The notes under the pieces: generated by a model
The model's database searches: none
Seen by the model: the letters and a program-made list of their open reading frames with translations, nothing else
Told to the model about the DNA's origin: nothing
Part shown: piece by piece, positions 36,086-52,592 of the stretch
Layout of the letters: each line of letters begins with the position of its first letter
Numbering within the stretch: the first letter of the stretch is position 1
Made by a program: the position numbers and the translations under genes
DNA from: Candidatus Pacearchaeota archaeon
GTDB lineage: Archaea; Nanobdellota; Nanobdellia; Pacearchaeales; UBA284
Direction: 5' to 3'
Assembly: GCA_038886195.1 (NCBI GenBank)
Contig: JAVZYK010000001.1
Coordinates: 240,168 to 304,167 of the forward strand
DNA length: 64,000 nt

Positions 36086-38653
36086 TTATTCTTTTTTATA
36101 TTCTGTCTCTTCCATAACTTTCACTACATCTGTAACTTTATCATCTTGTCTCAATTTAATAATTCTAACGCCTTGTGTATTTCTTCCCATAACTCTAATA
36201 TCTTTACAAGGCACTCTTATAACCATGCCTTTAGCTGTTGTTACTATAATAGAATCTTTAGATGTAACAAGTTGAACAGCCACAACATTTCCATTGCGTT
36301 CTGAACAGTTTATATTTATAATTCCCTTACAAGCTCTTGCAGTTTTTCTATATTCTTCTATAGCGCTCCTTTTTCCGAAGCCCTTTTCTGTTACTGTTAA
36401 GATCGATTCTTTGATATTTTCTTTATTTAATATTTCAAGACCAACAACTTCATCTCCTTTTTCAAGTTTAATAACAGTAACACCATAAGCCGACTTACCC
36501 ATTTTTCTAACTTCATTAGAATTAAATCTTATTGCAATTCCTTTCTTTGTCGCTAAGAAAATTTCATCATCTTCTTTTACAAGCTGTGCTTCTACTATAG
36601 CATCATCTATTGGCAATTTAGCCGCTATAACGCCACTTTGTTTTATTCTAATAAATTCTTCTAAGCCAACTTTTTTACCAATTCCTTTTTTTGTTACAAT
36701 AAACAAATCTCCTTTTAATTGTACTAAAGGAATTACTGCTTTAATTTTATCAGTAATTTGCAACAAGTTTATTAAGGCCTTGCCTTTGCTGTAGCGCGTT
36801 GCTTCAGGAATGTTGTATGCTTTTAATAAATATAATTTACCTCGCTCTGTCAAGAATAAAATAAAATCGTGAGTTGAACATACAAAAACTTTTTCAACAA
36901 AATCTCCTGTTGTAAGTTCAGTTCCTGTAATGCCTTTGCCTCCACGCCTCTGTTCTTGATAGAGCTTTAAAGGCATTCTTTTAATGTAGCCTTTAGCAGT
37001 CAAAAGAACAGCAACTTGTTCTCTTTTTACAAGTTCGAGTTCAGAAACTTCTTTAGGAGCTCTTTCAAGAATTTGTGTCCTTCTAGAGTCCCCATATTTT
37101 CTCTTAAGTTCTTGCAGTTCATGTTTTATAATATCGAGAATGGCTTGTTCATTAGCAAGAATTGCTTCAAGTTCTTTTATTTTTTTCTTTGTCTCTTCAA
37201 AATCTTTCTTTAGTTTATCTTGTTCAAGTTGTGTTAGTCTTTGTAATTTCATATCAAGAATTGCTTGAGCTTGTTTTTGGCTTAATTTGAATTTTGTAGT
37301 CAAACCAGTTAGAGCCTCTGTTATGCCTTTAGATTTCTTAATTAGTGATATTACATCTTCTAAATTTTTCAATGCAACTAATAAGCCTTCCAAAATATGC
37401 TCGTGTTCTTGAGCCAGTTGTAGGTCAAATTGTGTTCTTTTTTTAATAACATATTGTCTATGTTTAACATAACATTCAATTAATTGTTTCAAGTTAAGAA
37501 TTTGAGGTTTTCCTTGAACTAAAGCAAGCATAATTGCATTAAATTTACTCTGTAAAGGCGTCAATTTGAAAAGCTTGTTTAAAATCAATTTTGAATTTGC
37601 TCCTCTTCGCAGCACAAGAACAATCCTAATCTGATCTTTGGCGCTCTCATCTCTTATGTCTGCAACATCTTCAATTTTTTTTGTTTTAACAAGTTCGGCA
37701 ATCTGTTTTATTAATTCGGCTTTATTTATTTGGTAAGGAATTTCTGTAATTACAATATATTCTCTATCTTTTTTTTGTTCAATAGTTGCTTTACCTTTCA
37801 TTATTATGGCGCCTTTACCGGTTTTGTAAACTTCTTCAATTCCATGTGAGAAAATTGAAGCGCCAGTAGGAAAATCAGGCCCTTTAATGTAATTCATTAA
37901 TTCCTCAACCGATATTTTAGGATTTTTAATATACGCAATAATAGCATCTGCTACTTCATTCAAGTTATGTGGAGGAATACTAGTCATCATTCCTACTGCT
38001 ATGCCTTGCGAACCATTGATTAACAAGTTTGGAAGCTTCGCAGGTAAAATTTCTGGTTCTGTCAAAGTGTTATCAAAATTAGGAAGCATTTTGACAGTTT
38101 TCTTTTCAATATCTTGTAACATTTCTTCTGCAATTGCGCTTAAACGAGCTTCTGTATAACGCATTGCTGCGGGTGGGTCGCCATCAATTGAACCAAAATT
38201 GCCTTGGCCCTCGATCAGAGGATAACGCAAAGAAAATGGTTGAGCCATTCTAACGAGAGCATCATAAACAGCAATGTCACCATGAGGATGATATTTTCCT
38301 ATGACTTCACCAACTATGCGCGCTGTTTTCTTTGTTGGTTTATTATGTTGCATCCCTAACAAGTTCATTGCATACAAAATACGACGCTGTACTGGTTTCA
38401 GGCCATCTTCGGCGCTAGGTAGAGCTCGCGAGACAATAACACTCATCGCATAATCAATATAGGCTTTTTTCATCTCTTCTTCTATCCTAGTTATTTGAAC
38501 TTTTTCTTCTTTGCTTATATTTAATAGAGGCGAGACTTTATCTTCTTTATTTTCATTATTATTGTTATTGCTATCGTTATTATTTTTATTATCTTCTTCT
38601 TTCGCTCTTTTTTCTTCTATTTTCTTTTCGTCTACCATTTTATTTTTTAACAA
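36086..38653 (-). CDS. gyrA: DNA gyrase subunit A
   Basis: 855 aa. [40 protein letters not shown] (active-site Tyr), and a C-terminal beta-pinwheel of repeats. The N-terminal about 45 aa is N/K/E-rich. Confidence 0.95.
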
Positions 38654-39003
38654 GTAACATGAAATAAGCCAGCTTTTCTTGTTTCTGTTTCATTAAAAAT
38701 TTCAATTGCTTTTGGTGTAGCTTCAGTTATAAGTTTAGTGCCATATTTAGAACATTCTCGTTCAACCCCTTGTTCTAAACGACAAGCTTTATATTGCCCT
38801 AAACCTATAATCAAAACCTGAGGTTTTGTTGCAAGCAAACTTTTAATTTCTTCTGTACAAATTACATGATGTGTTCCATACCATTTTTCACTTATATTGC
38901 TTCTTTTAGCTACAATTCCGTTAGCATCGATAACTATGTCATAATCATAAGTTTTATTATCTACAGTTATTTTTCCAAATTTAGTTTCATTTATTTGTAC
39001 CAT
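38647..39003 (-). CDS. MTH938-like (DUF498/NDUFAF3-like) protein
   Basis: 118 aa. [17 protein letters not shown]...[13 protein letters not shown]...[11 protein letters not shown]...[14 protein letters not shown]...AGLFHVTC follows the MTH938 family pattern as I recall it. It overlaps the gyrA start by 7 nt and starts 2 nt after the gyrB stop. Confidence 0.6.
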
Positions 39004-39005
39004 TT

Positions 39006-40970
<1,965 letters not shown>

Positions 40971-41110: not shown

Positions 41111-42469
41111 TCATTTTTTTATGGGCCTCTTCTTTTTTAATGTGAAGTATAAAATTAAACCCACAATCACTAAAGCAAAAATAACAAGATAATACCAACA
41201 AATTCCAACGCCACCAATATAAATTCCCCAACAAAATCCAAACAAACAGCATAAAGGCTTACATATGTTTCTTTCACATTTGTAAACTTTTCCTAAAAAT
41301 AAAGGACCTAAGTTAAAGCCAAGCTTATCACAGCCACAATCTTTACAGCAGTTATTTTTATTTTCTGCAAGTTCACATCTGTTATCACCACATTTGGCAG
41401 CATAACAATCAGCAGGACAATTTTGCCATGTTTCGCCTTTATCTGGCTCACAAATACCATTGCCGCAAGTTGCGCAATCAGTTGGACAGTTTTCAGCAGT
41501 TTCATTCTTGTCTGTTTCGCAGACAAGATTGCCACAATATATTACACAATCAGGACAATTAGCATAAGTCTCACCCATATCGCAAACATTATCATAGTTA
41601 CAATTAGCACAGCAATCTTGACAACAAGTTACAACATTTTCATTACATTCGGCCTGACAAACGCCATCGCCGCAAAGACATCCTGGACAATCAATAGGAC
41701 AATTTAAGGAAGTTTCAGTAAAATTAAAGCACAATCCGATTATAACATCACAAACACCATTACCACATTTACAATCTTGAGGGCAAGTTATGTTAGTTTC
41801 ATTAAAAGCGGCTTGACATAAGCCATCAGGACAATGACAATCGGAGGGGCAATTAGTGCAATTTTCACCTATTGCAATATCGCAAGTGCCATTCATATTA
41901 CAAATAGCACAATCAATACAATTAGTTACATTTTCGCAACAACCAGTTAAGTTTGTAGGATGGGGCCAACAGAAGCTAGGACAAGGCTCGCAAATTGAAT
42001 TATTGTTACAAATAGTTGGACAATCTTGTGGGCAAGTCAAACAAGTTTCGTTGCCATTGCATATATAATCGCCACAATAAAAAGGAGAACTTAAATTAAC
42101 AGTAGGAGCTTGATCATTTCCTGATTTAGAAAGTTTAACACTTGTATTGGCAGTATGATTTTCATCTTTGAAAATGTAAATATAAACAGTATCGTTTTCT
42201 TGCCATTGTTGCTGGCAATTGCCAATATCTTGAGCATACCAATTGGCTTGTTTAGAATTTCCTGTTACACCAACAATATCAGTAAGAACACAATAGGAAA
42301 CGCCATTTCTAGTCACGTTAAAAGTTACAGTTGCTCCATTAGCATCAGTGCCATCGCTTGCATTATTAACCATTCCATTCACACCGTGCTGGGTGCCGGC
42401 AGAAACGAAAATCATTAATAGAGCCAAGATTAAAATACTAACAGACAAAATCAAAACTGCTCGTTTCAT
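41111..42469 (-). CDS. cysteine-repeat surface protein with C-terminal membrane anchor
   Basis: Sec signal and a beta-rich N-domain. Then about 300 aa with repeated units of the form CG(D/N)G(V/I)C...E(T/N)xxNCPxDC (for example ITCPQDCKCGNGVCD, LNCPIDCPGCLCGDGVCQ, ENCPTDCATCGNGICEP, QNCPADCYAAKCGDNRCE). C-terminal TM helix plus KKKRPIKK tail. Confidence 0.6.
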   Translation of the reverse strand: MKRAVLILSVSILILALLMIFVSAGTQHGVNGMVNNASDGTDANGATVTFNVTRNGVSYCVLTDIVGVTGNSKQANWYAQDIGNCQQQWQENDTVYIYIFKDENHTANTSVKLSKSGNDQAPTVNLSSPFYCGDYICNGNETCLTCPQDCPTICNNNSICEPCPSFCWPHPTNLTGCCENVTNCIDCAICNMNGTCDIAIGENCTNCPSDCHCPDGLCQAAFNETNITCPQDCKCGNGVCDVIIGLCFNFTETSLNCPIDCPGCLCGDGVCQAECNENVVTCCQDCCANCNYDNVCDMGETYANCPDCVIYCGNLVCETDKNETAENCPTDCATCGNGICEPDKGETWQNCPADCYAAKCGDNRCELAENKNNCCKDCGCDKLGFNLGPLFLGKVYKCERNICKPLCCLFGFCWGIYIGGVGICWYYLVIFALVIVGLILYFTLKKKRPIKK

Positions 42470-42688: not shown

Positions 42689-44719
42689 ATGAGAATAAAA
42701 AGATTAATTAAAGACAAGAAAGGTATAACAAAAACAATTGTAATCGTTTTGCTTATCGCCGCCATTGTTTTTCTAATCTTTTCATCAACCGCGCTCATTG
42801 CACAGAATGAGACAACTAGTACTTTAACCGAAGAAATAAATTCAAATGAAACAAATCAGACCGAGCCGCCCATTGTCGAGCCCGAGTGCTTGACAAACGA
42901 GGATTGTGATGATAACAATGAATCTACTATAGACTTATGCATTGAAGGAAACTGTTCTTATCAAGAAATTGTGCCTCAACAGCCTCAACAAAACGAGACA
43001 AACTTGACAAATTTCACTTTAGTTATTGAAGATTATGAAGGCCACAGAGTTTACGCTCAGCTTTCAATTTATGATAAACAAGAAAAGAAATGGGAGAAAA
43101 TTGATAGAGAAGCGGAGGTAGAGAAAGGTAAACATAAAGTAAAGATAAAATTGACTCAAACTATCAAGGAAATTGAAATTGATTCTTTAGAAATTACTGA
43201 AGCAAAAGAGTATAAATTAAGGATCGACGAAGTGCCTTTGGAGAAAAGTCCAAATGCAGAGGCTGTTCAGATTTATGCAATTGATCCTACACAACTTGAG
43301 TTTAGCGAGGCAATTGTTACTGTAAAAGCAAAAGGCACAGAACTATGGAAATGTAAAGATTGGGACTTTGACTCAAGAACTTGTAATGGCGAATGGACTT
43401 ATTTGATGGCAATTGTTCCTGGCCAAGATTATTCATTCACCTTGACACCGGAAGACCCTGCTTATATAGAATATAATTATAGTAATTATCAAATAGAGGG
43501 CCATATGGCGTGGAGTTCTAATAATGCTTTGTCGAAACCACCTTCTGGAGGCCCTGCAGTACCTAATGAAAAAGAATTGAATTCTACACAATATAGCCAG
43601 ATAAATGCTTCTGACAATATTCGAGCTTCTGTCGCAAGTGCAAATTATAGAACCTTTAGATTTATGTTCAAGCTTAACCAAAGTACAAGCCGGATTGTTA
43701 ATCTAACAATTGCATGGGAAGGCTATACTACTGGAGCAAATGCTGTACAGAGGCGAGTTGATTTATATGTTTGGAATTTTACAAGTAATTCCTGGAGCGC
43801 TTCTTTAGCCAATAACAACCTTGCTGCTGATTATTGGTTAAGATATACCTTTGCACCAAGTTCGCCTGAAGAATTTAAACATATAATAAACTCTACTAAT
43901 CATATAATCTTTCTTGTTGAAACGCCAGATCCTGCTGGAACACAGACTTTCTATACTGACATGGCAAATATTTCTGTTTGGGCTGATATTGTTGGGCCGA
44001 ACATTACTTTTATTAGCCCAACTCCACCCAATGGCAGTTCTCAAAATGAGAGTTGGGTAACAATTAATGCTTCTGTTATAGATGATATGAGTGTACATTC
44101 TTGCATTTTAGATTGGAATGGAACAAATGAAAGTATGAAAGCAGAAACAGGATCAGGCGTTACGTGTTGGATTAACAAAACAAATTTGGCTCCTGGAAAT
44201 TATACATATCGTGTTTATGCCAACGATAGTTATGGAAACTGGAATGTCTCTGAAACAAGAACTATAGAAATAAGAGAAGTTTGTGCTATAGCAATAGGAT
44301 TATCAGAAGAATTAAGCAAGGGAATTTTGTGGAATGTTACTATTTTGCCTGCATCGAATTTAAGCGCAATTGGCAATAATGAAATATCAGAAACTAGTTA
44401 TAACATAACTATCTATATAAATGGAAATTGTAGAGCAGACCTATATATGAGGGCAGAAGATGATTTAAAAACAGAAACGAGCCAAATTATAGGTTTAGGA
44501 AATGAGACTTATTGTTATAATTTAACCGATCCAAATGTTCCTGGAGTTGCTTGTAGAAGCATTACTAAAAATTTTGTAGACAATTTAATAGGAAGCGATT
44601 TAAACAATACAAATGTTATTTATTTAAAATTTTATCTTAATGTTCCTAGTGGCCAACCTTCTGGAATATATAAAAACAACATTACAATTAAAGGCGTCAA
44701 GGCAGGAGAAAATCCTTAA
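42689..44719 (+). CDS. large surface protein; class III-like signal; C-terminal module paralogous to the next gene
   Basis: N-terminus DKKG-ITKTIVIVLLIAAIVFLIF, a small Cys knot (CLTNEDCDD...CIEGNC), and many N-x-S/T sequons. The last about 145 aa align by eye with ORF 44802..45356. Confidence 0.6.
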   Translation: MRIKRLIKDKKGITKTIVIVLLIAAIVFLIFSSTALIAQNETTSTLTEEINSNETNQTEPPIVEPECLTNEDCDDNNESTIDLCIEGNCSYQEIVPQQPQQNETNLTNFTLVIEDYEGHRVYAQLSIYDKQEKKWEKIDREAEVEKGKHKVKIKLTQTIKEIEIDSLEITEAKEYKLRIDEVPLEKSPNAEAVQIYAIDPTQLEFSEAIVTVKAKGTELWKCKDWDFDSRTCNGEWTYLMAIVPGQDYSFTLTPEDPAYIEYNYSNYQIEGHMAWSSNNALSKPPSGGPAVPNEKELNSTQYSQINASDNIRASVASANYRTFRFMFKLNQSTSRIVNLTIAWEGYTTGANAVQRRVDLYVWNFTSNSWSASLANNNLAADYWLRYTFAPSSPEEFKHIINSTNHIIFLVETPDPAGTQTFYTDMANISVWADIVGPNITFISPTPPNGSSQNESWVTINASVIDDMSVHSCILDWNGTNESMKAETGSGVTCWINKTNLAPGNYTYRVYANDSYGNWNVSETRTIEIREVCAIAIGLSEELSKGILWNVTILPASNLSAIGNNEISETSYNITIYINGNCRADLYMRAEDDLKTETSQIIGLGNETYCYNLTDPNVPGVACRSITKNFVDNLIGSDLNNTNVIYLKFYLNVPSGQPSGIYKNNITIKGVKAGENP

Positions 44720-44801
44720 AACGCAAAGCACAAAGTTTAAAAACTTTTTATATTATAATAAAAAGATACTAAAAATAAATATTAAAAAGAGGTAAGTTAA
44801 A

Positions 44802-45356
44802 ATGAAATTAAATAAATTTTTAATTTTTTTAGTAGTTGCAGTAATTGCATCTATATCGTTGATAAAAATAGAAGCACAACAAAGTGAACAAACTACCATT
44901 AGTAATGTAACTGTTGCAGAATATGTTGCTATTGGGTTAAGCACAGATTTAGCAGAAGGGATATTATTTGGAAGCGTTGATCCAGCAACTAATGACAATA
45001 ATGCCACAAAAAACTATGCTGGGGCAGGAGGAGCAACAACTTATTATGTAGCAGTATCTTCTGATAGTAATGTAAATGTTGATTTATGTATAAAGGATAA
45101 TGCTCCTCTAACAAGTTCTGGAGGCCAAACAATACCAAACAATGGCTATACTTGGGATGATGATAGTTCTGGTACAGGACCTACACTTCCTGGCACAGCA
45201 ATGAGTACAACTTATGTTAAAACTGGAGTAACCAATATAGCGCCTGGAGACAATGATTACTTCAGATTCTGGTTAGATATTCCGGCAGGACAACCAGCGG
45301 GCGTTTACAATAACACAGTTTACTTCAAAGGAATAAAAGTTGGAGAAAGTTGTTAA
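44802..45356 (+). CDS. small secreted protein, candidate fibre or major subunit (paralog of the C-terminus of the preceding gene)
   Basis: SD-like aaaagaggtaag upstream and a Sec signal ...SLIKIEA-QQ. YVAIGLSTDLAEGILFGSV and C-terminal FRFWLDIPAGQPAGVYNNTVYFKGIKVGESC match AIAIGLSEELSKGILWNV and LKFYLNVPSGQPSGIYKNNITIKGVKAGENP in the upstream protein. Confidence 0.6.
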   Translation: MKLNKFLIFLVVAVIASISLIKIEAQQSEQTTISNVTVAEYVAIGLSTDLAEGILFGSVDPATNDNNATKNYAGAGGATTYYVAVSSDSNVNVDLCIKDNAPLTSSGGQTIPNNGYTWDDDSSGTGPTLPGTAMSTTYVKTGVTNIAPGDNDYFRFWLDIPAGQPAGVYNNTVYFKGIKVGESC

Positions 45357-45439
45357 TTTTATTTTTTTATTTTATTTTTTTTAATTTATAATGAAAATTT
45401 TTTAAAATTGAATAAATTAAATAAAATCAAAAATAAAAG

Positions 45440-46036
45440 ATGAAAAATAAAGATGTTTTTTTTATCTTTTGTTTAACCTTCTTTTTTATTCTATCATCCG
45501 CTAATGAAAGTTATGCAGCTACTGTAGGAATAGGTTTAAAATGGTTTACAGAAAGCGAGTATGTTAAAGAAGGCACAATAAAGTGCATTGATTATGGTTT
45601 ATATAATCCTTTTGATCAAGATGTTCGTGGTTATTTGGTAGCTACCAAAGATTTAGAAAGTCTATATGATGCTGAAAAACCAAAATTGATTCCTGCGAAT
45701 ACTTCTTCTAAAAATGCTATTCTAACAAAAATATGTTTTAAAATTCCGAAAAAAGTTTATCAAGAAAATTGTATTTTAGGGATGATGTGTGAAAAAAAAT
45801 GTGAAAATATAGAAGAAAAATCATACAAAGGAGAAGTAATAGCTCAATATGATATTTCAAGACCAAATCAAGGAGTGGGTTCTGTTGTCGGATCGAGTTT
45901 TGCCGCTCCTTTAGAACTTAAAGTTAAATGTGAAAAAAAAGAAAGAAATTGGCTTCCTTTAATTCTTGTAGTAATTATAGTGGCGGCGATAATTGTTTGG
46001 CAGTTAATTAAAAGGAAACACAAAAATAGATTTTAA
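45440..46036 (+). CDS. secreted protein with C-terminal TM anchor
   Basis: Sec signal (...SSANESYA-A), about 150 aa of beta-rich domain, a TM helix (WLPLILVVIIVAAIIVWQLI) and a basic tail KRKHKNRF. Confidence 0.55.
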   Translation: MKNKDVFFIFCLTFFFILSSANESYAATVGIGLKWFTESEYVKEGTIKCIDYGLYNPFDQDVRGYLVATKDLESLYDAEKPKLIPANTSSKNAILTKICFKIPKKVYQENCILGMMCEKKCENIEEKSYKGEVIAQYDISRPNQGVGSVVGSSFAAPLELKVKCEKKERNWLPLILVVIIVAAIIVWQLIKRKHKNRF

Positions 46037-46039
46037 AAG

Positions 46040-47680
46040 ATGCGCTATGATAAGAAAAAACTAATATATGTAATTATATTTGCATTATTTTTATTGTTCG
46101 TTTTAGAAATAAAAGAAGTTGATGCCAATATCCAAGAAGCTTCTTCGAGTACCTACATTTCAGAAATTGCTTGTAATTGGTCTGTGGTTCCAATGGAAAT
46201 AAATACAACTGCGGAGTTGGGAGAAAATAAATCTGAAATATTAACACTATTTACTAAAAGCACATCCAATGAAGGAAAACCTTGTAATAAAGGAACAATT
46301 TTAAATATAAATTCTGAAGGAGAAATTGCTTCTTGGATAAATTTTAATGAAAGTTCAATCGTGCTAGGCTATAATGAAACTAAATACGTTTTGGTTAAAA
46401 TAAATGTACCTTTCAATGCTACCCCTTACATTCATACTGGACAAATAAAACTATCTAATCTAACTCACACCATATTAGTTAATATAAATTTAAATATAAG
46501 CGATAATGTTGGAAAGGCGAGATTCATTGTAACGAGTTCTGGTTCTCCATTGAGTTATGCGAAGATAGAAATCTTAAAAAATAATTCAAAAATAGAAGAG
46601 GGTTTTAGTAATAACTTTGGAGTTTGGGAAAGTGGTTGGTTGCCTGTTGGTGAATATTCTGCCACAATATCCAAAACAGGATATCAAACAGGAATTATTT
46701 ATTTTAATATAACAAAAAATATTACTGTCAACATTTCTGTTAGTTTAACAAAAATATCTGGTGGAGGTGGTGGCGGCGGAGGTGGTGGTGGAGGTGGCGG
46801 AGGAGGTTATATTGCTCCCAGCTTTCCTCAAATTCCTTTCTTTTTAACTAAGCAATGTATAAATATAGATAAAGAAATCATAAGAATAAAAATAAAACAA
46901 GGGACAAAACAAAAAGAAAGCATTAAAGTAAAAAACATTTGTAATTTTCCTATAAACATATCTGTAGACATAGGAAATATAATAGAATTTATAGAAATAA
47001 AAGAAGGAGAGCTATTAATAAGTTCTAATATAGAATTAGAGTTGAAGCCAAGCGAAGAAAAAATTTTAATTTTAAATTTTTTCGTTGGTGAAAATCAAGA
47101 AGTAAATGTTTATTCTCGTTTAATTTATATAAAAGAAAAAGATAAAGCAATAAAAATTCCAGTAATAATAGAAATAATGCCAAAAGAAACTGTATTAGAT
47201 TTAATTATTGAAATTCTTCCTCAACATTTAGAAATATATCCGGGCCAAGAATTGATGGTAAAAGTAAAAATATATAATTTTGGCGCGGGAAAAGAAGATT
47301 GTACAATTGATTTGTATATTAAAGACATGCAAGACAACATAATAAAACACAAAAAGAAAACCCTTGCAGTTTATAATCAAATAGAATATATAGAAACTTT
47401 TACTCTCCCTAAAAAAATAGAATATGGAAAATATTTGGTTTATGGAAAAGTGGTATCGAAGGGCCAACAAGAATCAGTTTCTTCTGCGATGTTTTATATA
47501 GTAGAGCCAAAAATTTTAGGAATTAATAAAAGATCGTTTTTTATAATAATAATTGTAATAGTTTCATTAGTTGGGATTTTATTTTGGATTTTGATTAAAA
47601 ATATACTCCTAAAAGAAGCTCTTTCAAATTTAAAACAAAAATATAAAATACACATGATAAAACACTATATTAAACGATAA
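46040..47680 (+). CDS. surface protein with beta-sandwich modules, Gly16 linker and C-terminal TM anchor
   Basis: Signal peptide. A CarboxypepD_reg/PEGA-like stretch (ARFIVTSSGSPLSYAKIEIL...GEYSATISKTGYQTG), G16, a CARDB-like stretch (LEIYPGQELMVKVKIYNFGAGKEDCTIDLYIKD) and a C-terminal TM helix. Starts 3 nt after the previous stop. Confidence 0.55.
   Translation: MRYDKKKLIYVIIFALFLLFVLEIKEVDANIQEASSSTYISEIACNWSVVPMEINTTAELGENKSEILTLFTKSTSNEGKPCNKGTILNINSEGEIASWINFNESSIVLGYNETKYVLVKINVPFNATPYIHTGQIKLSNLTHTILVNINLNISDNVGKARFIVTSSGSPLSYAKIEILKNNSKIEEGFSNNFGVWESGWLPVGEYSATISKTGYQTGIIYFNITKNITVNISVSLTKISGGGGGGGGGGGGGGGGYIAPSFPQIPFFLTKQCINIDKEIIRIKIKQGTKQKESIKVKNICNFPINISVDIGNIIEFIEIKEGELLISSNIELELKPSEEKILILNFFVGENQEVNVYSRLIYIKEKDKAIKIPVIIEIMPKETVLDLIIEILPQHLEIYPGQELMVKVKIYNFGAGKEDCTIDLYIKDMQDNIIKHKKKTLAVYNQIEYIETFTLPKKIEYGKYLVYGKVVSKGQQESVSSAMFYIVEPKILGINKRSFFIIIIVIVSLVGILFWILIKNILLKEALSNLKQKYKIHMIKHYIKR
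46760..46807 (+). repeat. in-frame run of 16 glycine codons
   Basis: ggt gga ggt ggt ggc ggc gga ggt ggt ggt gga ggt ggc gga gga ggt read directly from the sequence. Confidence 0.9.
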
Positions 47681-47731
47681 ATTTATAAGCCAAAACAAAC
47701 AAAAATAAATATAAAAAGAGTAAAAATAAAA

Positions 47732-48535
47732 ATGGGTGAGTCGATAGGAATTTTGTCGATAAAAGGTGGTGTTGGTAAGACAACTACAGCAGTAGCTTTA
47801 GGAGCTGCGCTCGCGCAAAGGAATAAAAATGTCTTGCTTGTTGATGGAAATTTTTCTGCTCCCAATCTTGCTTTGCATCTAGGTATTGTTAAGCCAGAGA
47901 TAGGACTTTATGATGTGTTACAAGGCAAGGCCAATGCTCTTGGTGCAATAATTCAAACAGATTATGGTTTTGATATTATTGCTAATAAACTGGCTTTTAA
48001 AAAAGTATTTTATCCTGATTATTTAAAACTTAAAGAAAAAATACAACACTTAAAACATCACTATGATATTATTTTAATTGATAGCTCTCCTAGTTTAGAT
48101 CATGAAACTTTGGCTGCAATGATGGCAAGCGATAAGATTTTAATTGTAACAACGCCAGATCATGCCACTCTTTCTTGTACTTTGCATGCTGTCAAAGTAG
48201 CCAAGCAAAAAAAAGTGCCTATAATTGGGTTGATTTTAAATAAAGTATATGGAAAAAAATTTGAATTAAGTCTAGAACAAATAGAAGAAATAACTGGCGT
48301 GCCGGTCTTGGCCGTAATTCCTCATGAACTAACAATTCCAGAAGCACTATCGGAGCTGAGGCCAACAACACAAGGTAAAGAAACTGATGCTACAGTCGAA
48401 TATAAAAAATTGGCCGCTTTCCTTGTTGGTGAGAGTTATAAAGATCGGCGATTCAAAACAAGATTGAGAAACTTATTTTCGAGCAAAATTCCTAAACAGG
48501 AAATAAACAGACAACAACCAATTAGAAATTTTTAA
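47732..48535 (+). CDS. MinD/ParA-family P-loop ATPase
   Basis: Deviant Walker A SIKGGVGKTTTAVALG, LLVDGN, and Walker B ILIDSSPS. 267 aa. Confidence 0.8.
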   Translation: MGESIGILSIKGGVGKTTTAVALGAALAQRNKNVLLVDGNFSAPNLALHLGIVKPEIGLYDVLQGKANALGAIIQTDYGFDIIANKLAFKKVFYPDYLKLKEKIQHLKHHYDIILIDSSPSLDHETLAAMMASDKILIVTTPDHATLSCTLHAVKVAKQKKVPIIGLILNKVYGKKFELSLEQIEEITGVPVLAVIPHELTIPEALSELRPTTQGKETDATVEYKKLAAFLVGESYKDRRFKTRLRNLFSSKIPKQEINRQQPIRNF

Positions 48536-48537
48536 TT

Positions 48538-49341
48538 CTACGTTTTATAAATAACAAATTTTGAGCCGGCATAACTAGATATGATTGCTGTTATAGCAAT
48601 GTTTCCTATTTGTGTCTTGAAAATTGGTTCTGATATTGGCTGATTTGTTCTGTCCGCAAATTTTTTAATAATTGTTTTAATTTCGTCTTCTGTTAATGTG
48701 ACAACAGTTTCTTGAATTTTGCCTTCTTTTTTTATCTTTATAGGTAAATTTGCTCCATCACACTGAATCATATTAACAGAAGCATCCTGGATAAATGTAT
48801 TTAATTTATCTAAATCTATAATTGGAGATAGTCCTGGCTTTTGCGTTAATGGAATTTTTGTTATTTTAGGTTTAGGGGGTGGCGGTAAAGGCCATGCTGG
48901 TGTTAATTTTGGAGGTTTTGGTAAAGGCGGTAATGGTCTTTGGTATATGGGCGCTACTGGAGCTGGAATTGACGGAACTTCGATTAAAGTTGGAGTTGGC
49001 TTAGGCGCTGGTATTTTTTCTTTCTCTATTTTTTCTTCCCTTGGCTTTTCTTCTGGCAAAGCCATTGCCTCGCCTTCTAAAGAAATCTCTTTTAGTTTGG
49101 TTTTTGCCATCGCCATTGCTTTTTTCCCTTCTTCTCTTATACTAGGCCGCAATTTCTTTTCAATCAACGCTTCTTTTTCAGCAGTTTTTGCTTTTTTTAT
49201 TTTTGCTTTTTCTTTCAACTCTGTTTTAGTATTTTCTTCTTCCTTTAATTTTTCTTTCTCTATTTTTTCTTTAATTTCTATTGCTTTTTCAGCAAAAGCT
49301 TTAAGAAATTCTTTTTCATAATTAGATAATTTCTTGGGCAT
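48538..49341 (-). CDS. coiled-coil / proline-rich protein ending in a secretion-ATPase (GspE/FlaI/VirB11-type) N-terminal domain, with no ATPase core
   Basis: The C-terminal about 95 aa FIQDASVNMIQCDGANLPIKIKKEGKIQETVVTLTEDEIKTIIKKFADRTNQPISEPIFKTQIGNIAITAIISSYAGSKFVIYKT parallel the domain that precedes Walker A in T2SS/T4P/archaellum ATPases. The ORF stops there. Confidence 0.5.
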   Translation of the reverse strand: MPKKLSNYEKEFLKAFAEKAIEIKEKIEKEKLKEEENTKTELKEKAKIKKAKTAEKEALIEKKLRPSIREEGKKAMAMAKTKLKEISLEGEAMALPEEKPREEKIEKEKIPAPKPTPTLIEVPSIPAPVAPIYQRPLPPLPKPPKLTPAWPLPPPPKPKITKIPLTQKPGLSPIIDLDKLNTFIQDASVNMIQCDGANLPIKIKKEGKIQETVVTLTEDEIKTIIKKFADRTNQPISEPIFKTQIGNIAITAIISSYAGSKFVIYKT

Positions 49342-50177: not shown

Positions 50178-50443
50178 GTGGCAGGTTAGGCTGGCGTGCT
50201 AGCCCTACGCCGTTCGCAAATGGGCTTTATGGCGAGCTGCAAGAGGGCAAGTCATATACTTATTAACAAGTCCTAACTTGGACGTTGACGTCTTGTCCTG
50301 CTTGATCTTGCCATAATGAACCGGGTCAGTCTCGGAAGAGGGCAGCCCTAAATTATGGTTAAGGTGCTTGCAGGGTTACAAGGCTGAGAAAAAGTTAGGG
50401 AAGCTTGTTAATAAGTATAGAAGCAAGCCCTCGAACCTGCCAC
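50178..50443 (+). ncRNA. signal recognition particle RNA (archaeal 7S-type)
   Basis: The termini pair (GUGGCAGGUU / AACCUGCCAC). A long helix 5 is visible (GAGGGCAAG..UAUACUUAUUAACAAG / CUUGUUAAUAAGUAUA..GCCCUC). The helix 8 core GGGUCAGUCUCGGAAGAGGGCAGCC matches the universal GGUCAGGUCCGGAAGGAAGCAGCC motif. Confidence 0.85.
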
Positions 50444-50479
50444 TTAAAGAATAAAAAGAAAAAGAGGGAAATTAGAAAG

Positions 50480-50992
50480 ATGAATAATAAAAAAGCGCAA
50501 TTTTTCATTATGGGTTCGGTTATTCTAGGAATAATAATTCTAAACATAGCAACAGTATGGAACTATTCTTTGAAAAAAGATCTTACAGAAAAAAAGTTTA
50601 GAACTTTATGTCAAAATTATAAGAATGAAATTTTTGAAATAAGTAAACAAGTTGTAGAATCTGGAAACAAAAATGAAGAACAAGATGCTATTTTAGAATT
50701 CACTATGCAATTTTTACAATACATTAAAACAAATGAACCAAATTTTAAACTTATTTATGTTTACGGAAATAGTTCAAATATTGTAGTTTTTAACTATACA
50801 CAAATGCAATTAACAACGATTCCTAAAGTTAATTGGCAAACAGCGAATGGTTATTATATAGGCTATGGTGCTGGTGATTGGATGAACATATCTAATACAA
50901 AAATAAATAAAAGCTATCGTATTTATCAAGATGAAAGATTTTATTTTATAGCATTTGAAGAAAAGGAAGGTGAATTTTATATATGCGAATGA
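50480..50992 (+). CDS. archaeal pilin-like protein (class III signal peptide)
   Basis: Start moved to ATG 50480 because the ORF-track start 50405 lies inside the SRP RNA. N-terminus MNNKKAQ-FFIMGSVILGIIILNIA. Confidence 0.5.
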   Translation: MNNKKAQFFIMGSVILGIIILNIATVWNYSLKKDLTEKKFRTLCQNYKNEIFEISKQVVESGNKNEEQDAILEFTMQFLQYIKTNEPNFKLIYVYGNSSNIVVFNYTQMQLTTIPKVNWQTANGYYIGYGAGDWMNISNTKINKSYRIYQDERFYFIAFEEKEGEFYICE

Positions 50993-51003
50993 ATTAATTT
51001 AAG

Positions 51004-51528
51004 ATGTCAGTAAGTAAAAAAATTTTAAACAAAAAAAGCAAAATAAATAAAAAAGCAATAAGCGAACTTGTATCTTATGTTTTGCTTATTGTTTTAGCGA
51101 TTGCTATGGCTGCCGTAGCATATGTTTTTTTGAAGCCTTACGCTGAAAAGCCATTGCCAGAAGAGGAATGTCCAGAAGCTGTAAATGTTGTTTTAGAAAA
51201 TTATAGTTGTAATAATAAAATGTTTAGTTTTACCTTAAAAAATCGTGGCTTATTTGATGTATATGGTATAAAGTTAAAGATTATTAACAATAGTGAAGGC
51301 TTACAATATGATTTTTGGTTATATTTGCCTGATTGTGGAGGAATACAAAAATGTAATGATTGTAATGAAGATTGTTTAAAAGTAGAAACTGATCTCAAAG
51401 GAGATTTGGATTATAGCAATTTTAATAAAATTAATGAGCTAGTAATTTATCCAATAAAGGTCATTAATAACAATTTTTATATCTGTAGTAATGCTGTAAT
51501 TAAAGTTCCTTTAGAAGGTTGTAATTAA
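51004..51528 (+). CDS. archaeal pilin-like protein (class III signal peptide)
   Basis: ...KINKKA-ISELVSYVLLIVLAIAMAAVAYVFL, followed by a Cys-containing beta-rich domain. Confidence 0.55.
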   Translation: MSVSKKILNKKSKINKKAISELVSYVLLIVLAIAMAAVAYVFLKPYAEKPLPEEECPEAVNVVLENYSCNNKMFSFTLKNRGLFDVYGIKLKIINNSEGLQYDFWLYLPDCGGIQKCNDCNEDCLKVETDLKGDLDYSNFNKINELVIYPIKVINNNFYICSNAVIKVPLEGCN

Positions 51529-51567
51529 TAAAGCAAAATATTTAAATTCATTTAACAATATAATAGA

Positions 51568-51996
51568 ATGAAAAATGTATTGTGGAATAAAAGAGGAATA
51601 TCTCCAGTTATTGCTACAGTTTTGTTAATAGTCGTTGCAATTGCGCTTTTTTTATTAATATTTTTATGGCTAAAAGGATTTCAAAAGGAAGTTATAACAA
51701 AGTACAATGTTCCCATTGAAACTGCTTGTATGAATTTGAGATATGATGTTATAAAAAGTGGCAACACAATACAAGTTAGCAATCTAGGAAGTACAACCAT
51801 TTATAAGATGAAAGTTTATGTTGATGGAAGTTTAAAGGCCACTATAACAAACCCCATATATCCTTCAGAATCTAGTCAAACCACTATTGGAAGTTGCAAT
51901 AAAGTAAAAGCAATACCTGTTTTGGCGGGCACAACAAAATCTGGCACACAAAGAGAATATGTTTGTGAAAAACAAGCCAAAACAATTAATTGCTAA
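51568..51996 (+). CDS. archaeal type IV pilin (DUF361-type N-terminus)
   Basis: MKNVLWNKRG-ISPVIATVLLIVVAIALFLLIF is the canonical archaeal pilin N-terminal motif. Confidence 0.72.
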   Translation: MKNVLWNKRGISPVIATVLLIVVAIALFLLIFLWLKGFQKEVITKYNVPIETACMNLRYDVIKSGNTIQVSNLGSTTIYKMKVYVDGSLKATITNPIYPSESSQTTIGSCNKVKAIPVLAGTTKSGTQREYVCEKQAKTINC

Positions 51997-52054
51997 TAAA
52001 GTATTATGCTCTTTAAATTAAATTATAAAGAGGTAAAAGCCAAAAAAAGAGAAA

Positions 52055-52558
52055 ATGAAAAATAAAAAAGCTATAGAACCAGTTGTTGCTACAGTTTTAC
52101 TAATAGTTATTACAATTGCAGCAGTTGCTTTGATAATTGCTTTTGTGGTGCCTTTTATACAACAACAACTTGGAGCAAGTGGTGTGTGCTATAAAGCACA
52201 AGGAATTCAAATAGATTCAGAAGCAACTTGTCACAACGAAACGCATTTGATTTTAAAAGTTGTATGGAATGGTAATGAAGCTTTAAATTTAACAAAAATA
52301 AGATTGTCTGCAAGCACTGCTACTGAAACAAAAACATTAACAATGCCTTTAAGTACCCCTTCAGGTAGCTTTTCGATACCTAAAAACCCTGGAGAAGAAG
52401 TTACTTGGACAATAGCTACAACGCAATTTGGATTTGGCGGAGGAAGTGATGGAGCAAGAGCAAACTATACGAGTGTTTCTATAGCGCCAGTAATAAAACC
52501 AGCAAAAGGAAATGAAATAACTTGCGACATAAGAAGCATTGCTGTGGAACGTTGTTAA
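52055..52558 (+). CDS. archaeal type IV pilin (DUF361-type N-terminus)
   Basis: MKNKKA-IEPVVATVLLIVITIAAVALIIAF. Confidence 0.72.
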   Translation: MKNKKAIEPVVATVLLIVITIAAVALIIAFVVPFIQQQLGASGVCYKAQGIQIDSEATCHNETHLILKVVWNGNEALNLTKIRLSASTATETKTLTMPLSTPSGSFSIPKNPGEEVTWTIATTQFGFGGGSDGARANYTSVSIAPVIKPAKGNEITCDIRSIAVERC

Positions 52559-52592
52559 ACTTTTTTATATTTTTATATTTTTGAATAAAAAA

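What the first reader, a model, noticed from the sequence alone, without database searches (positions are those of the whole stretch)
42689..48535. Five-gene surface-fibre or adhesin-like operon: a large protein and a small protein share one C-terminal module, followed by two anchored proteins and a MinD/ParA ATPase
- **Layout:** five co-directional genes of 676, 184, 198, 546 and 267 aa, separated by gaps of 82, 83, 3 and 51 nt.
- **Shared module:** the last about 145 aa of the 676-aa protein align by eye with nearly the whole mature 184-aa protein.
  - Near the start: AIAIGLSEELSKGILWNV against YVAIGLSTDLAEGILFGSV.
  - Up to the stop codon: LKFYLNVPSGQPSGIYKNNITIKGVKAGENP against FRFWLDIPAGQPAGVYNNTVYFKGIKVGESC.
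- **Analogy:** a big, sequon-rich protein carrying the same module as a small stand-alone secreted protein is how tip adhesin plus major subunit are organised in beta-sandwich fibres. Examples are SCPU/Csu-type and TasA-type bundling pili. This analogy is from memory and is not a detected homology.
- **676-aa protein:** it starts with DKKG-ITKTIVIVLLIAAIV, which looks like a prepilin (class III) signal.
- **198-aa protein:** Sec signal plus C-terminal TM helix plus basic tail, so it is chaperone- or anchor-like.
- **546-aa protein:** beta-sandwich modules, a Gly16 linker and a C-terminal TM helix.
- I cannot assign any of the four surface proteins to a named family.
Basis: partly seen in the sequence, partly recalled or inferred. 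Interest (0 to 1): 0.78.

Follow-up and report, generated by a model that had tools for sequence, protein, structure and literature searches.

The report
DPANN archaeal adhesin-and-stalk surface gene cluster
This is a conserved, so far unnamed gene cluster of tiny symbiotic (DPANN) archaea that most likely builds a membrane-anchored adhesive stalk or fibre, with a giant variable sticky protein at its tip, so it is a concrete candidate for how these cells attach to hosts or surfaces.

Summary
The last 142 aa of the 676-aa protein match the mature 184-aa protein (BLASTP E 5e-17; shuffle z = 24).

The cluster recurs across DPANN archaea. In 59 non-duplicate loci I found:
- small module protein(s), S: 57
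- a 190–240-aa anchored protein, P3: 55
- a large protein ending in the module, L: 47
- a multi-Ig anchored protein, P4: 42
- a MinD-like ATPase: 6, five of them directly after the last anchored gene, so it is an accessory

The module has no Pfam, NCBIfam or PDB sequence match. It still defines 1,095 clusters at 50% identity.

S-type copies carry a conserved free N-terminal extension and a Cys pair. L-type copies lack both and sit at the extreme C-terminus.

The AlphaFold2 model of S (pLDDT 91.6) mostly matches donor-strand pilins such as CfaB, CsuA/B, FimA, Caf1, archaeal bundling pilus and cannulae. These matches are weak (best E 2e-3). P3 and P4 have macroglobulin/MSP/PapD-like Ig folds.

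Best reading (0.45): a Sec-exported chain, L at the tip, S units, P3 as anchor, joined by strand complementation. Main rival (0.33): a non-polymeric docking complex organised like Firmicute WxL clusters.

The prepilin-signal idea is not supported.

The parts
42689..44719 (+). P1, the 'L' protein (676 aa): a large, sequon-rich surface protein. It has an N-terminal hydrophobic signal or anchor (aa 10-40), a Cys-rich stretch, beta-rich domains, and the shared module at the extreme C-terminus.
   Evidence: ORF. Hydrophobic segment and 33 sequons. Weak Y_Y_Y/Big_7 Ig hits at aa 437-528. In 47 of 59 loci a large protein (387 to more than 3200 aa) ending in the module precedes the small one.
43427..44272 (+). 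P1 central region (aa 247-528): a beta-rich domain plus an Ig-like domain. It is shared with the giant L protein of locus L001 and is the putative binding part.
   Evidence: BLASTP to L001 large ORF residues 935-1223, E 8e-15. The L001 protein carries precomputed NosD/Beta_helix and AF_1625_C hits. Other L proteins carry Laminin_G_3 and PKD domains.
44288..44713 (+). L-type copy of the shared module (P1 aa 534-675). It has no free N-terminal extension and no Cys pair, and it ends ...GENP.
   Evidence: L-type modules (n=49) lie within 0-4 residues of the C-terminus in 47 cases and end in Pro in 38. Cys at the two S-type positions occurs in only 8% and 6%.
44802..45356 (+). P2, the 'S' protein (184 aa): a Sec signal (aa 1-26), a conserved N-terminal extension (aa 27-43, ...TISNVTVAEY), then the beta-sandwich module with the Cys96-Cys184 pair.
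   Evidence: AF2 model with pLDDT 91.6. Fold search dominated by donor-strand pilins. The family has 1,095 clusters at 50% identity.
44880..44930 (+). N-terminal extension of mature P2, the candidate donor strand.
   Evidence: It is conserved across 83 S-type proteins (consensus TxSNVTIxKY) and absent from all L-type copies. It is not part of a strand in the monomer model: residues 20-43 are coil with pLDDT 72-84.
45357..45396 (+). Oligo-T tract directly after the P2 stop codon, a possible attenuating archaeal terminator. It is specific to this window.
   Evidence: T fraction is 0.70 over 40 nt, above the 99th percentile of the window, with two runs of at least 7 T. It is not conserved after S genes elsewhere, 2 of 83.
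45440..46036 (+). P3 (198 aa): a Sec signal, then a mature N-terminus ATVGIGLKW (an amphipathic strand with invariant G30 and G32), an Ig-like ectodomain with conserved Cys, a C-terminal TM (aa 167-194) and a basic tail. It is the putative strand-donating anchor or chaperone.
   Evidence: Alignments A2 and A3. AF2 model with pLDDT 88.7. Foldseek hits: complement macroglobulin domains 6e-5, MSP domains about 2e-4 (TMt 0.51), PapD 3.6e-3. Present in 55 of 59 loci and duplicated together with S in some.
46040..47680 (+). P4 (546 aa): a Sec signal, a variable distal half (weak CarboxypepD_reg at aa 163-236), a Gly16 hinge (aa 241-256), a conserved proximal half with Ig-like domains, a C-terminal TM (about aa 499-519) and a basic cytoplasmic tail of 27 aa.
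   Evidence: The conserved part is the half after the Gly hinge (HMM positions 240-525). A poly-Gly run of at least 4 occurs in 23 of 40 orthologues. Weak recurrent ASH/HYDIN/Cep192/MSP-type hits. Present in 42 of 59 loci.
47732..48535 (+). P5 (267 aa): a MinD/ParA-type ATPase with the deviant Walker A motif (SIKGGVGKT) and a basic amphipathic C-terminus. It is an accessory, not a core member.
   Evidence: A MinD-like gene directly follows the last anchored gene in 5 of 59 loci: the window, L003, L010, L014 and L034. These five are 31-54% identical to each other.

Best explanation
The cluster encodes a Sec-exported, membrane-anchored adhesive stalk or fibre found mainly or only in DPANN archaea.

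**Proposed parts**
- P1 (L) is the distal adhesin. Its variable, heavily glycosylated binding domains end in a pilin-like beta-sandwich module that has an acceptor site but no free N-terminal strand.
- P2 (S) is that module alone, plus a conserved free N-terminal extension.
- P3 is a single-pass Ig-like protein whose mature N-terminus is a conserved amphipathic Gly-containing strand.
- P4 is a hinged multi-Ig membrane strut.
- P5, where present, is a MinD-type ATPase.

**Proposed mechanism**
1. The extension of S inserts into the module of the next, more distal subunit (L or another S). This donor-strand complementation builds a chain of one to many S units under the adhesin.
2. P3 supplies the strand for the most proximal S unit and ties the chain to the membrane. 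This combines a PapD/TapA-like capping role with an anchor role.
3. P4 acts as a scaffold beside the base.
4. The MinD-type ATPase probably positions or regulates the site through the basic cytoplasmic tails.

**Shown:** the shared module, its two consistently different subtypes, the topologies, the conserved gene order, and the fold classes.

**Inferred:** strand exchange, chain polarity, chain length, and the roles of P3, P4 and MinD.
For: - **Homology:** module homology is E 5e-17, z = 24.
- **Conserved order:** the order L, then S (1-3 copies), then P3, then P4 recurs in Woese-, Pace-, Nano- and Aenigmatarchaeota MAGs. Counts over 59 loci are S 57, P3 55, L 47 and P4 42. The commonest orders are L-S-P3-S-P4 (9), L-S-P3-P4 (9), S-P3-P4 (6) and L-S-S-P3-P4 (6).
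- **Subtype dichotomy expected of a tip adhesin versus shaft subunits:** L-type modules are C-terminal (47 of 49 within 4 residues of the end) and lack the extension. S-type modules have the conserved TxSNVTIxKY extension and a Cys pair (96% and 89%, against 8% and 6% in L).
- **S fold:** the AF2 model has pLDDT 91.6, six strands of at least 3 residues, and an extension outside the sheet. The majority of the 50 listed Foldseek PDB hits are strand-complemented filament subunits: CfaB 2e-3, CsuA/B 4e-3, TLP-1a, P. calidifontis bundling pilus 1.1e-2, FimA, Caf1 and cannulae CanA. DUF4402 is the commonest weak Pfam hit among 109 S proteins, in 6 of them, best 3e-3.
- **P3:** an Ig-like ectodomain with macroglobulin, MSP and PapD matches. 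TapA, which complements TasA by strand donation, is described as macroglobulin-like (PMC9245690, PMC10151520). G30 and G32 are invariant in the N-terminal strand at the predicted mature end. S-P3 units are duplicated together in L009, L011 and L038.
- **Membrane-anchored S variants:** variants of about 290 aa have the TM immediately before the extension. This fits the same polarity.
- **L domains typical of adhesins:** Laminin_G_3, PKD, beta-helix and Ig.
- **MinD:** five of the six MinD-like genes found in about 650 kb of flanks lie directly after the last anchored gene, co-directional.
Against: - No fold match reaches E <= 1e-3, TM-scores are 0.3-0.56, and beta-sandwich similarity is promiscuous. 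CBM-like domains of GH123 and NgaAt hexosaminidases are also in the list.
- No multimer prediction could be run, so strand exchange is untested.
- In the P3 monomer model the N-terminal strand is part of P3's own sandwich.
- Some L proteins appear to be N-terminally membrane-anchored through a cytoplasmic domain plus a TM. That fits a distal tip position poorly unless the anchor is cleaved.
- L proteins of more than 3000 aa are unlike compact pilus tip adhesins.
- No sequence-level link to any known pilin family was found.
- The function of P4 is essentially a guess.
Confidence: 0.45

Rival explanations
1. A non-polymeric cell-surface display complex, organised like the WxL (Csc) clusters of Firmicutes. 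In this reading the shared module is a docking or anchoring domain. It binds non-covalently to the membrane-anchored Ig-like proteins P3 and P4, or to envelope glycans. L is the displayed adhesin. S is a small adaptor or competitor that uses the same docking site. No strand exchange or fibre is involved.
For: - The gene logic matches point for point. WxL clusters always contain a small protein (about 180 aa after the signal) and a large protein that share a C-terminal domain, plus a beta-sandwich protein with a membrane anchor (DUF916/DUF3324), and usually a small anchored LPxTG protein. They have one or two small copies per cluster. The large proteins carry beta-helix, Ig and adhesin domains (PMC9772566). 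The pattern here is the same.
- Giant L proteins, some with their own N-terminal TM, fit display better than a pilus tip.
- CBM-like domains appear among the fold hits of S.
- Subthreshold WxLIP_PGBD hits occur in 6 of 40 P4 orthologues, best 8e-4.
Against: - No WxL domain match appears among the 25 families listed (of 70) for the 109 S proteins at E <= 5, and the motif RFWLD is not W-x-L.
- The apparent EF0750_LPXTG hit covers only the signal peptide where the aligned region was shown (P3 residues 1-28).
- Archaea here lack peptidoglycan and sortase.
- This reading does not explain why S keeps a conserved N-terminal extension that L always lacks, nor why the S fold hits are mostly strand-exchanging pilins.
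Confidence: 0.33
2. An extracellular substrate-capture or glycan-processing complex. L proteins with beta-helix, LamG or CBM-like domains would bind or cut polysaccharides. The shared module would be a carbohydrate-binding module, and P3 and P4 would hold the complex at the membrane for uptake.
For: - NosD/Beta_helix and Laminin_G_3 domains occur in L proteins.
- S fold hits include the N-terminal beta-sandwich of GH123 and NgaAt hexosaminidases, and there is a weak sequence hit to 8k2h, E 0.21.
- Firmicute Csc/WxL clusters were originally proposed to serve carbohydrate utilisation (PMC1534035, title and abstract).
- An MFS transporter follows the cluster in L001.
Against: - No catalytic glycoside hydrolase or lyase family was detected in P1-P4.
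- Transporters are not conserved neighbours.
- The extreme length and domain variability of L, next to conserved S and P3, is the pattern of adhesins or host-range determinants rather than enzymes.
Confidence: 0.1
3. A type IV pilus-related system. P1 would be a prepilin-like adhesin processed by the class III signal peptidase and mounted on the type IV-like pilins encoded 2 kb downstream.
For: - The P1 N-terminus contains KKG|ITKT followed by a long hydrophobic stretch, which fits a FlaFind-type pattern by eye.
- Five pilin-like ORFs lie at 50405-53108, with one weak Pilin_N hit.
Against: - Orthologous L proteins have ordinary Sec signals with AxA-type sites, or a cytoplasmic domain plus a TM. 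No conserved class III motif is present.
- P2, P3 and P4 have Sec-type signals.
- The pilin cluster is not a conserved neighbour of the module cluster in the gene tables of the loci fetched by protein look-up.
- Two opposite-strand genes separate the two clusters in the window.
Confidence: 0.05

Closest known systems
Chaperone-usher pili, especially archaic Csu (SCPU-type) and CFA/I, type 1 and Caf1 fibres
   Same: - A two-part adhesin whose C-terminal pilin-type domain lacks a donor strand.
- One to three small subunits with an N-terminal extension.
- An Ig-like accessory protein of the PapD/MSP fold class.
- These pilins are the top fold hits for S. PapD is among the P3 hits.
   Different: - No outer membrane and no usher.
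- The 'chaperone' candidate has a single Ig domain and is membrane-anchored.
- No sequence membership in the Fimbrial or SCPU families.
- The adhesins can exceed 3000 aa.
- The system is archaeal, Sec-exported and glycosylated.
TasA/TapA fibres of Bacillus and archaeal TasA-like filaments (bundling pili AbpA/AbpB, AbpX, cannulae CanA)
   Same: - Sec-exported beta-sandwich or jelly-roll subunit polymerised by an N-terminal donor strand, without an usher.
- An accessory beta-sandwich protein (TapA/AbpB, macroglobulin-like) proposed to donate the first strand and to anchor (PMC9245690, PMC10151520).
- 7ueg and 9h8b are among the S fold hits. Macroglobulin domains top the P3 hits.
   Different: - No Peptidase_M73/TasA match among the 25 families listed (of 70) for 109 S proteins.
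- No PDB sequence match.
- No signal peptidase gene nearby.
- Here a giant adhesin carries the subunit module.
- P3 has a C-terminal TM.
- P4 and MinD have no counterpart.
Haloarchaeal Tat-fimbriae (tafi: TafA/E, TafC, TafF, TafD, TafG)
   Same: A multi-gene archaeal cluster with a major subunit, a proposed tip protein and a proposed membrane-anchored terminating subunit, assembled by strand donation (PMC11821415, PMC12337348).
   Different: - Tafi subunits use Tat signals and need the dedicated peptidase TafD with TafG.
- Neither is present here.
- There is no shared module between a giant adhesin and the subunit.
WxL / Csc cell-surface clusters of Lactobacillales, Enterococcus and Listeria
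   Same: The gene logic is the same: a small and a large secreted protein share a C-terminal domain, next to a beta-sandwich membrane-anchored protein and a small anchored protein. The large proteins carry adhesin-type domains (PMC9772566).
   Different: - No WxL motif and no PF13731 match among the listed families.
- DUF916-type hits are only subthreshold.
- Anchoring is by C-terminal TM helices instead of peptidoglycan binding and sortase.
- The hosts are archaea without murein.
Sulfolobus thread filament (Saci_0406/0405)
   Same: An archaeal, Sec-dependent, glycosylated, strand-complemented filament with a putative cap protein encoded alongside it (PMC9715654).
   Different: - The thread subunit was not among the 50 fold hits listed for S.
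- No sequence relation could be tested.
- Threads have inter-subunit isopeptide bonds.
- The thread cluster has no giant adhesin and no P3/P4-like anchored proteins.

Membership tests
Chaperone-usher pilus systems | Subunit with an incomplete Ig fold plus an N-terminal donor extension | tested here: inconclusive
   The AF2 model of S has six strands of at least 3 residues and an N-terminal extension outside the sheet. CU pilins dominate the Foldseek list, but the best E is 2e-3 and TM-scores are 0.35-0.56. No multimer model was possible.
Chaperone-usher pilus systems | Sequence membership in the Fimbrial or SCPU pilin families | tested here: not met
   P2 has no Pfam or NCBIfam hit. Among 109 S proteins only DUF4402 recurs, in 6, best E 3e-3, subthreshold. 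There is no PDB sequence hit.
Chaperone-usher pilus systems | Two-domain periplasmic PapD-type chaperone | tested here: not met
   P3 has one Ig-like domain plus a TM helix. PapD matches only at E 3.6e-3, behind macroglobulin and MSP domains.
Chaperone-usher pilus systems | Outer-membrane usher | tested here: not met
   No such gene appears in the window or in the loci whose gene tables were read. The conserved partners are single-pass proteins.
TasA superfamily (TasA, AbpA, AbpX, CanA) | Profile match to TasA/Peptidase_M73 or to a solved member | tested here: not met
   It is not among the 25 families listed (of 70) at E <= 5 for 109 S proteins. Profile searches of PDB sequences give nothing relevant.
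TasA superfamily (TasA, AbpA, AbpX, CanA) | Jelly-roll subunit fold similar to AbpA or CanA | tested here: inconclusive
   7ueg gives E 1.1e-2 and TM 0.31. 9h8b gives E 9.3e-2 and TM 0.35-0.41.
TasA superfamily (TasA, AbpA, AbpX, CanA) | Adjacent dedicated signal peptidase (SipW/TafD type) | tested here: not met
   No S24/S26 peptidase was seen among the window neighbours or among the precomputed Pfam hits of the fetched loci. The Pyrobaculum ABP operon also lacks one (PMC9245690).
Tat-fimbriae (tafi) | Twin-arginine signal on the subunits | tested here: not met
   The N-termini of P2, P3 and P4 are Sec-type, with no RR motif.
Archaeal type IV pili | Class III signal peptide conserved on the subunits | tested here: not met
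   S, P3 and P4 have Sec-type signals with AxA-like sites. P1 alone has a KKG|I motif, and it is not conserved in orthologous L proteins.
WxL / Csc clusters | Two WxL motifs or a PF13731 match in the shared C-terminal domain | tested here: not met
   WxL is not among the 25 families listed (of 70) for 109 S proteins at E <= 5, and it did not hit P1 or P2 at E <= 0.1. The conserved motif is YxRFWLD(I/V)P.
WxL / Csc clusters | DUF916/DUF3324 (WxLIP) protein in the cluster | tested here: inconclusive
   WxLIP_PGBD hits occur in 6 of 40 P4 orthologues, best 8e-4, all below the 27.3-bit cut-off. ASH, HYDIN and Cep192 Ig hits are commoner.
WxL / Csc clusters | Cluster logic: small and large protein sharing a C-terminal domain, plus anchored beta-sandwich proteins | tested here: met
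   compared with PMC9772566.
MinD/ParA ATPases (P5) | Deviant Walker A motif and CbiA/AAA_31 domain | tested here: met
   The motif SIKGGVGKT is present. AAA_31 gives 3.9e-25 and CbiA 1.9e-22. Archaeal MinD TIGR01969 gives 161.8 bits, below the 201.75 cut-off.

The most novel reading that the evidence does not exclude
DPANN archaea possess their own usher-free donor-strand fibre. It would be evolutionarily separate, at the sequence level, from chaperone-usher, TasA-like, thread and tafi systems. In it:
- a membrane-tethered Ig protein (P3) acts as both chaperone and anchor;
- a hypervariable giant adhesin carrying the pilin module sets host or substrate specificity;
- assembly sites are positioned from the cytoplasm by a dedicated MinD-type ATPase in some lineages.

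This would make it the attachment organelle of Woese-, Pace- and Aenigmatarchaeota.
Probability: 0.3. Interest if true: 0.82.

Novelty: new variant of a known kind. Interest (0 to 1): 0.62.

Why it matters
How DPANN archaea hold on to hosts and surfaces is largely unknown, and most of their surface proteins are unannotated.

This cluster is widespread:
- 53 loci in species-representative genomes;
- 1,095 protein clusters at 50% identity.

It is syntenic, and it couples hypervariable giant adhesins to a small, conserved, easily expressed subunit and a small anchored partner. That gives direct handles:
- antibodies or tags against S and P3 for cryo-ET and immunolabelling of co-cultures;
- recombinant polymerisation tests;
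- L-protein variability as a marker of host range.

If strand complementation is confirmed, it adds a fifth archaeal donor-strand filament lineage and the first in DPANN. It would also be the first with a pilin module fused to giant adhesins and with a membrane-anchored chaperone-like partner.

The point-for-point parallel with Firmicute WxL clusters, whose mechanism is also unsolved, suggests that one solution to both may exist.

Tried and rejected
- **P3 as a diverged copy of the module.** hhalign of A2 against A1 gives 2.8% probability, so I rejected this.
- **P3 versus P4.** Only a 14-column B-strand motif matches (79% probability). This is not evidence of homology beyond the Ig class.
- **Sequence homology to WxL-cluster proteins.**
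  - EF0750_LPXTG appeared in 6 of 109 S proteins and in P3. Where the aligned region was shown (P3 residues 1-28), it covers only the signal peptide.
  - No WxL domain appears among the listed hits.
  - WxLIP hits are subthreshold.
- **Oligo-T terminator after S as a family trait.** It is present in the window but in only 2 of 83 S genes elsewhere.
- **Class III signal on L proteins.** It is not conserved.
- **MinD as a core gene.** It is found in only 6 of 59 loci.
- **PDB sequence searches.** Searches with P2, P1 and the A1, A5 and A2 profiles gave nothing useful. The A6 profile gave only weak MSP-type and 2qsv hits.
- **Genome scan with A1.** It failed because no stretch was conserved enough. 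It succeeded with the narrower alignment A4.
- **Structure prediction with locus-derived rows.** I redid it with database hits only.
- **Limits of the structure tools.** I therefore could not inspect the groove, the Cys96-Cys184 distance or the placement of the extension.
- **Literature.** I found no paper linking DPANN to donor-strand filaments, and none mentioning DUF4402 or PF14352.

Full report
**Observation**

The shared module is real. P1 residues 534-675 align with P2 residues 42-183 at 31% identity, BLASTP E 5e-17. The Smith-Waterman score is 173 against 32.7 +/- 5.7 for 2000 shuffles, z = 24.

Simple hydropathy analysis confirms the topologies:
- P1 has one N-terminal hydrophobic segment.
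- P2 has an N-terminal signal.
- P3 has a signal plus a C-terminal TM and a basic tail.
- P4 has a signal, a Gly16 run and a C-terminal TM with a basic tail.

P1 carries 33 N-glycosylation sequons, 4.9 per 100 aa, against 0.4-0.7 for cytoplasmic proteins of the same window.

P5 is a MinD/ParA ATPase with a deviant Walker A motif. It scores below the archaeal MinD equivalog cut-off.

The window is AT-rich, about 31% G+C. It encodes archaeal-type pilin N-termini nearby.

**Family and distribution**

P2 has no Pfam, NCBIfam or PDB sequence match.

A word-indexed search found 25 relatives. All come from metagenomes, and the one with an organism name is from a Nanoarchaeota MAG.

A profile search of 1.84 billion representatives found 1,095 clusters at 50% identity with E <= 1e-3, of which 155 have E <= 1e-30. 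Three architectures appear:
- stand-alone proteins of about 190 aa;
- proteins of about 290 aa with a cytoplasmic coiled-coil domain and a TM in front of the module;
- long proteins of 400 to more than 1700 aa with the module at the extreme C-terminus and Laminin_G_3 or other domains upstream.

A scan of GTDB species representatives returned 53 loci. Those with a lineage name are Woesearchaeota, Pacearchaeota, Nanoarchaeota or Aenigmatarchaeota MAGs. Many are labelled only 'uncultured archaeon', and two are labelled Methanosarcinales.

**Synteny**

I called ORFs in all fetched loci and searched them with profiles for the module, P3 and P4, and with P5 for MinD. Counts over 59 non-duplicate loci are:

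| Component | Loci |
|---|---|
| S | 57 |
| P3 | 55 |
| L | 47 |
| P4 | 42 |
| Two or more S | 24 |
| MinD-like | 6 |

The commonest orders are L-S-P3-S-P4 (9), L-S-P3-P4 (9), S-P3-P4 (6) and L-S-S-P3-P4 (6). Several of the loci that lack a component are cut by a contig end.

S-P3 units are duplicated together in L009, L011 and L038.

Five of the six MinD-like genes sit directly after the last anchored gene on the same strand: the window, L003, L010, L014 and L034. They are 31-54% identical to one another, and those of the window, L003, L014 and L034 end in basic amphipathic stretches. MinD is therefore a recurrent accessory, not a core gene.

**Two module subtypes**

I aligned 83 S-type and 49 L-type modules to one profile.

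| Feature | S-type | L-type |
|---|---|---|
| Conserved N-terminal extension (TxSNVTIxKY) after the signal | present | absent |
| Cys at the two conserved positions (C96, C184 in P2) | 96% and 89% | 8% and 6% |
| Position in the protein | whole mature protein | within 0-4 residues of the C-terminus in 47 of 49 |
| Last residue | Cys in 46 of 83 | Pro in 38 of 49 |
| What precedes the first core strand | free extension | directly attached to a preceding Ig-like domain |

L N-termini are ordinary Sec signals, or a cytoplasmic domain plus a TM, with no conserved class III motif.

**Folds**

- **S.** The AF2 model (26-row alignment) has pLDDT 91.6. It is a beta-sandwich with six strands of at least 3 residues. 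Residues 20-43 lie outside the sheet.
- **S fold search.** Foldseek against the PDB gives no hit at E <= 1e-3. The list is nonetheless dominated by strand-complemented filament subunits: CfaB 2e-3, CsuA/B 4e-3, TLP-1a, the P. calidifontis bundling pilus 1.1e-2, FimA, Caf1 and cannulae. Some CBM-like domains of GH123 and NgaAt enzymes also appear. Among 109 S proteins the only recurrent weak Pfam hit is DUF4402, in 6, best 3e-3.
- **P3.** The AF2 model has pLDDT 88.7. It is an Ig-like sandwich followed by a TM helix. Its best matches are complement and bacterial macroglobulin domains (6e-5), MSP domains (about 2e-4, TMt 0.51) and PapD (3.6e-3).
- **P4.** Orthologues share a conserved membrane-proximal half with weak ASH, HYDIN, Cep192 and MSP-type hits, and subthreshold WxLIP_PGBD hits. 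The distal half is variable. A poly-Gly hinge is present in 23 of 40.

**Mechanism proposed**

Three independent architectural facts point to one polarity:
1. L has the module last and has no free strand.
2. S has a free conserved N-terminal strand.
3. P3 has a conserved amphipathic Gly-containing strand (A-T-V-G-I-G-L-K-W, with G30 and G32 invariant) exactly at its predicted mature N-terminus, and a TM at the other end.

The anchored S variants have their TM just before the extension, which fits the same polarity.

I infer a chain from membrane to tip: membrane, P3, one or more S, then L. Each strand would fill the module of the more distal partner, as in chaperone-usher pili, where the adhesin is acceptor-only and the last subunit stays capped by the chaperone strand. 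TapA plays a comparable role for TasA (PMC10151520, PMC9245690).

Chain length is unknown. Clusters with one to three distinct S paralogues suggest an ordered short stalk at least as much as a long homopolymer.

P4 is probably a hinged scaffold at the base. MinD probably positions or regulates the site through the basic cytoplasmic tails, by analogy with other MinD/ParA-family positioning ATPases (my own knowledge, not tested here).

All of this paragraph is inference.

**Rivals**

- **WxL-like docking complex.** The strongest rival is a non-polymeric docking complex. Firmicute WxL clusters show the same logic: small and large proteins sharing a C-terminal domain, a DUF916 beta-sandwich membrane protein, and a small anchored protein (PMC9772566). 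I found no sequence homology to them. This model also leaves the S-specific extension unexplained.
- **Glycan-capture complex.** This is less likely, because no catalytic families and no conserved transporters were found.
- **Type IV pilus-linked reading.** This is also less likely, because the class III motif is not conserved.

**Comparison with the known, and novelty**

Archaeal strand-complemented filaments are an established kind: threads, bundling pili, cannulae and tafi (PMC9715654, PMC9245690, PMC12518558, PMC11821415, PMC12337348). I found none described for DPANN.

This cluster fails the sequence and gene-content membership tests for each of them and for chaperone-usher systems. It shares their fold class and logic. 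I therefore rate it a new variant of a known kind, function unproven.

**Dead ends and limits**

See the 'tried and rejected' field. The main limit is that no multimer prediction and no model coordinates were available, so strand exchange could not be tested.

Noticed in passing
window 50405-53108 (+): Five consecutive small ORFs (142-195 aa) have archaeal type IV pilin-like (class III) N-termini, for example KRGISPVIATVLLIVVAIALF and KKAIEPVVATVLLIV. Only one gets a weak Pilin_N hit, 8.8e-4. This looks like a separate pilin cluster 2 kb downstream of the finding.
   Followed up: partly
window 48538-49341 (-): A 267-aa Lys/Glu/Pro-rich protein. Its residues 173-239 weakly match the N-terminal part of the archaellum/pilus ATPase FlaI, NF058587, E 3.5e-3. 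It lies between the adhesin cluster and the pilin-like cluster.
   Followed up: no
window 41111-42469 (-): A 452-aa secreted protein, transcribed divergently from P1. It has 61 Cys, 16 sequons, repeats of CG(D/N)GxC...NCPxDC and a C-terminal TM. It has no family hit. A 181-aa protein with the same motif occupies the P4 position in L005.
   Followed up: partly
window 55033-56457 (+): A 474-aa protein with a Peptidase_M23 domain, 3e-11. From my own knowledge, M23 peptidases usually cut peptidoglycan, which makes this notable in a DPANN archaeon.
   Followed up: no
P0049, P0052; L050 6554-7468; L011 3040-7107: A subset of module proteins carry a cytoplasmic coiled-coil domain of about 100 aa and a TM in front of the module. 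In the ~290-aa S-type proteins (P0049, P0052, L050) it has the motif LNLHYEFGxxSYSEYSxLF. This makes them N-terminally anchored.
   Followed up: partly
L001 821-7957: The reading frame of the giant L protein stays open for 2378 aa. Upstream of a TM segment it includes a segment that looks by eye like a winged-helix DNA-binding domain. The public gene call starts only at 3365. This could be a fused regulator or a miscalled start.
   Followed up: no
window 36086-40943 (-) and L005 10874-15663: gyrB, a small ORF and gyrA lie next to the cluster in the window and also in a distant relative whose S protein is 40% identical.
   Followed up: no
window 46760-46807 (P4 aa 241-256): The Gly16 hinge. Poly-Gly length at the same junction varies from 4 to 16 among orthologues, and 23 of 40 have at least 4. 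This suggests a length-variable flexible hinge.
   Followed up: partly
window 45357-45396: An oligo-T tract (T fraction 0.70) lies right after the P2 stop codon. A TATA-like AT box and an AGAGGT ribosome-binding site lie upstream of P2. This hints at separate, higher expression of P2 in this genome only.
   Followed up: yes
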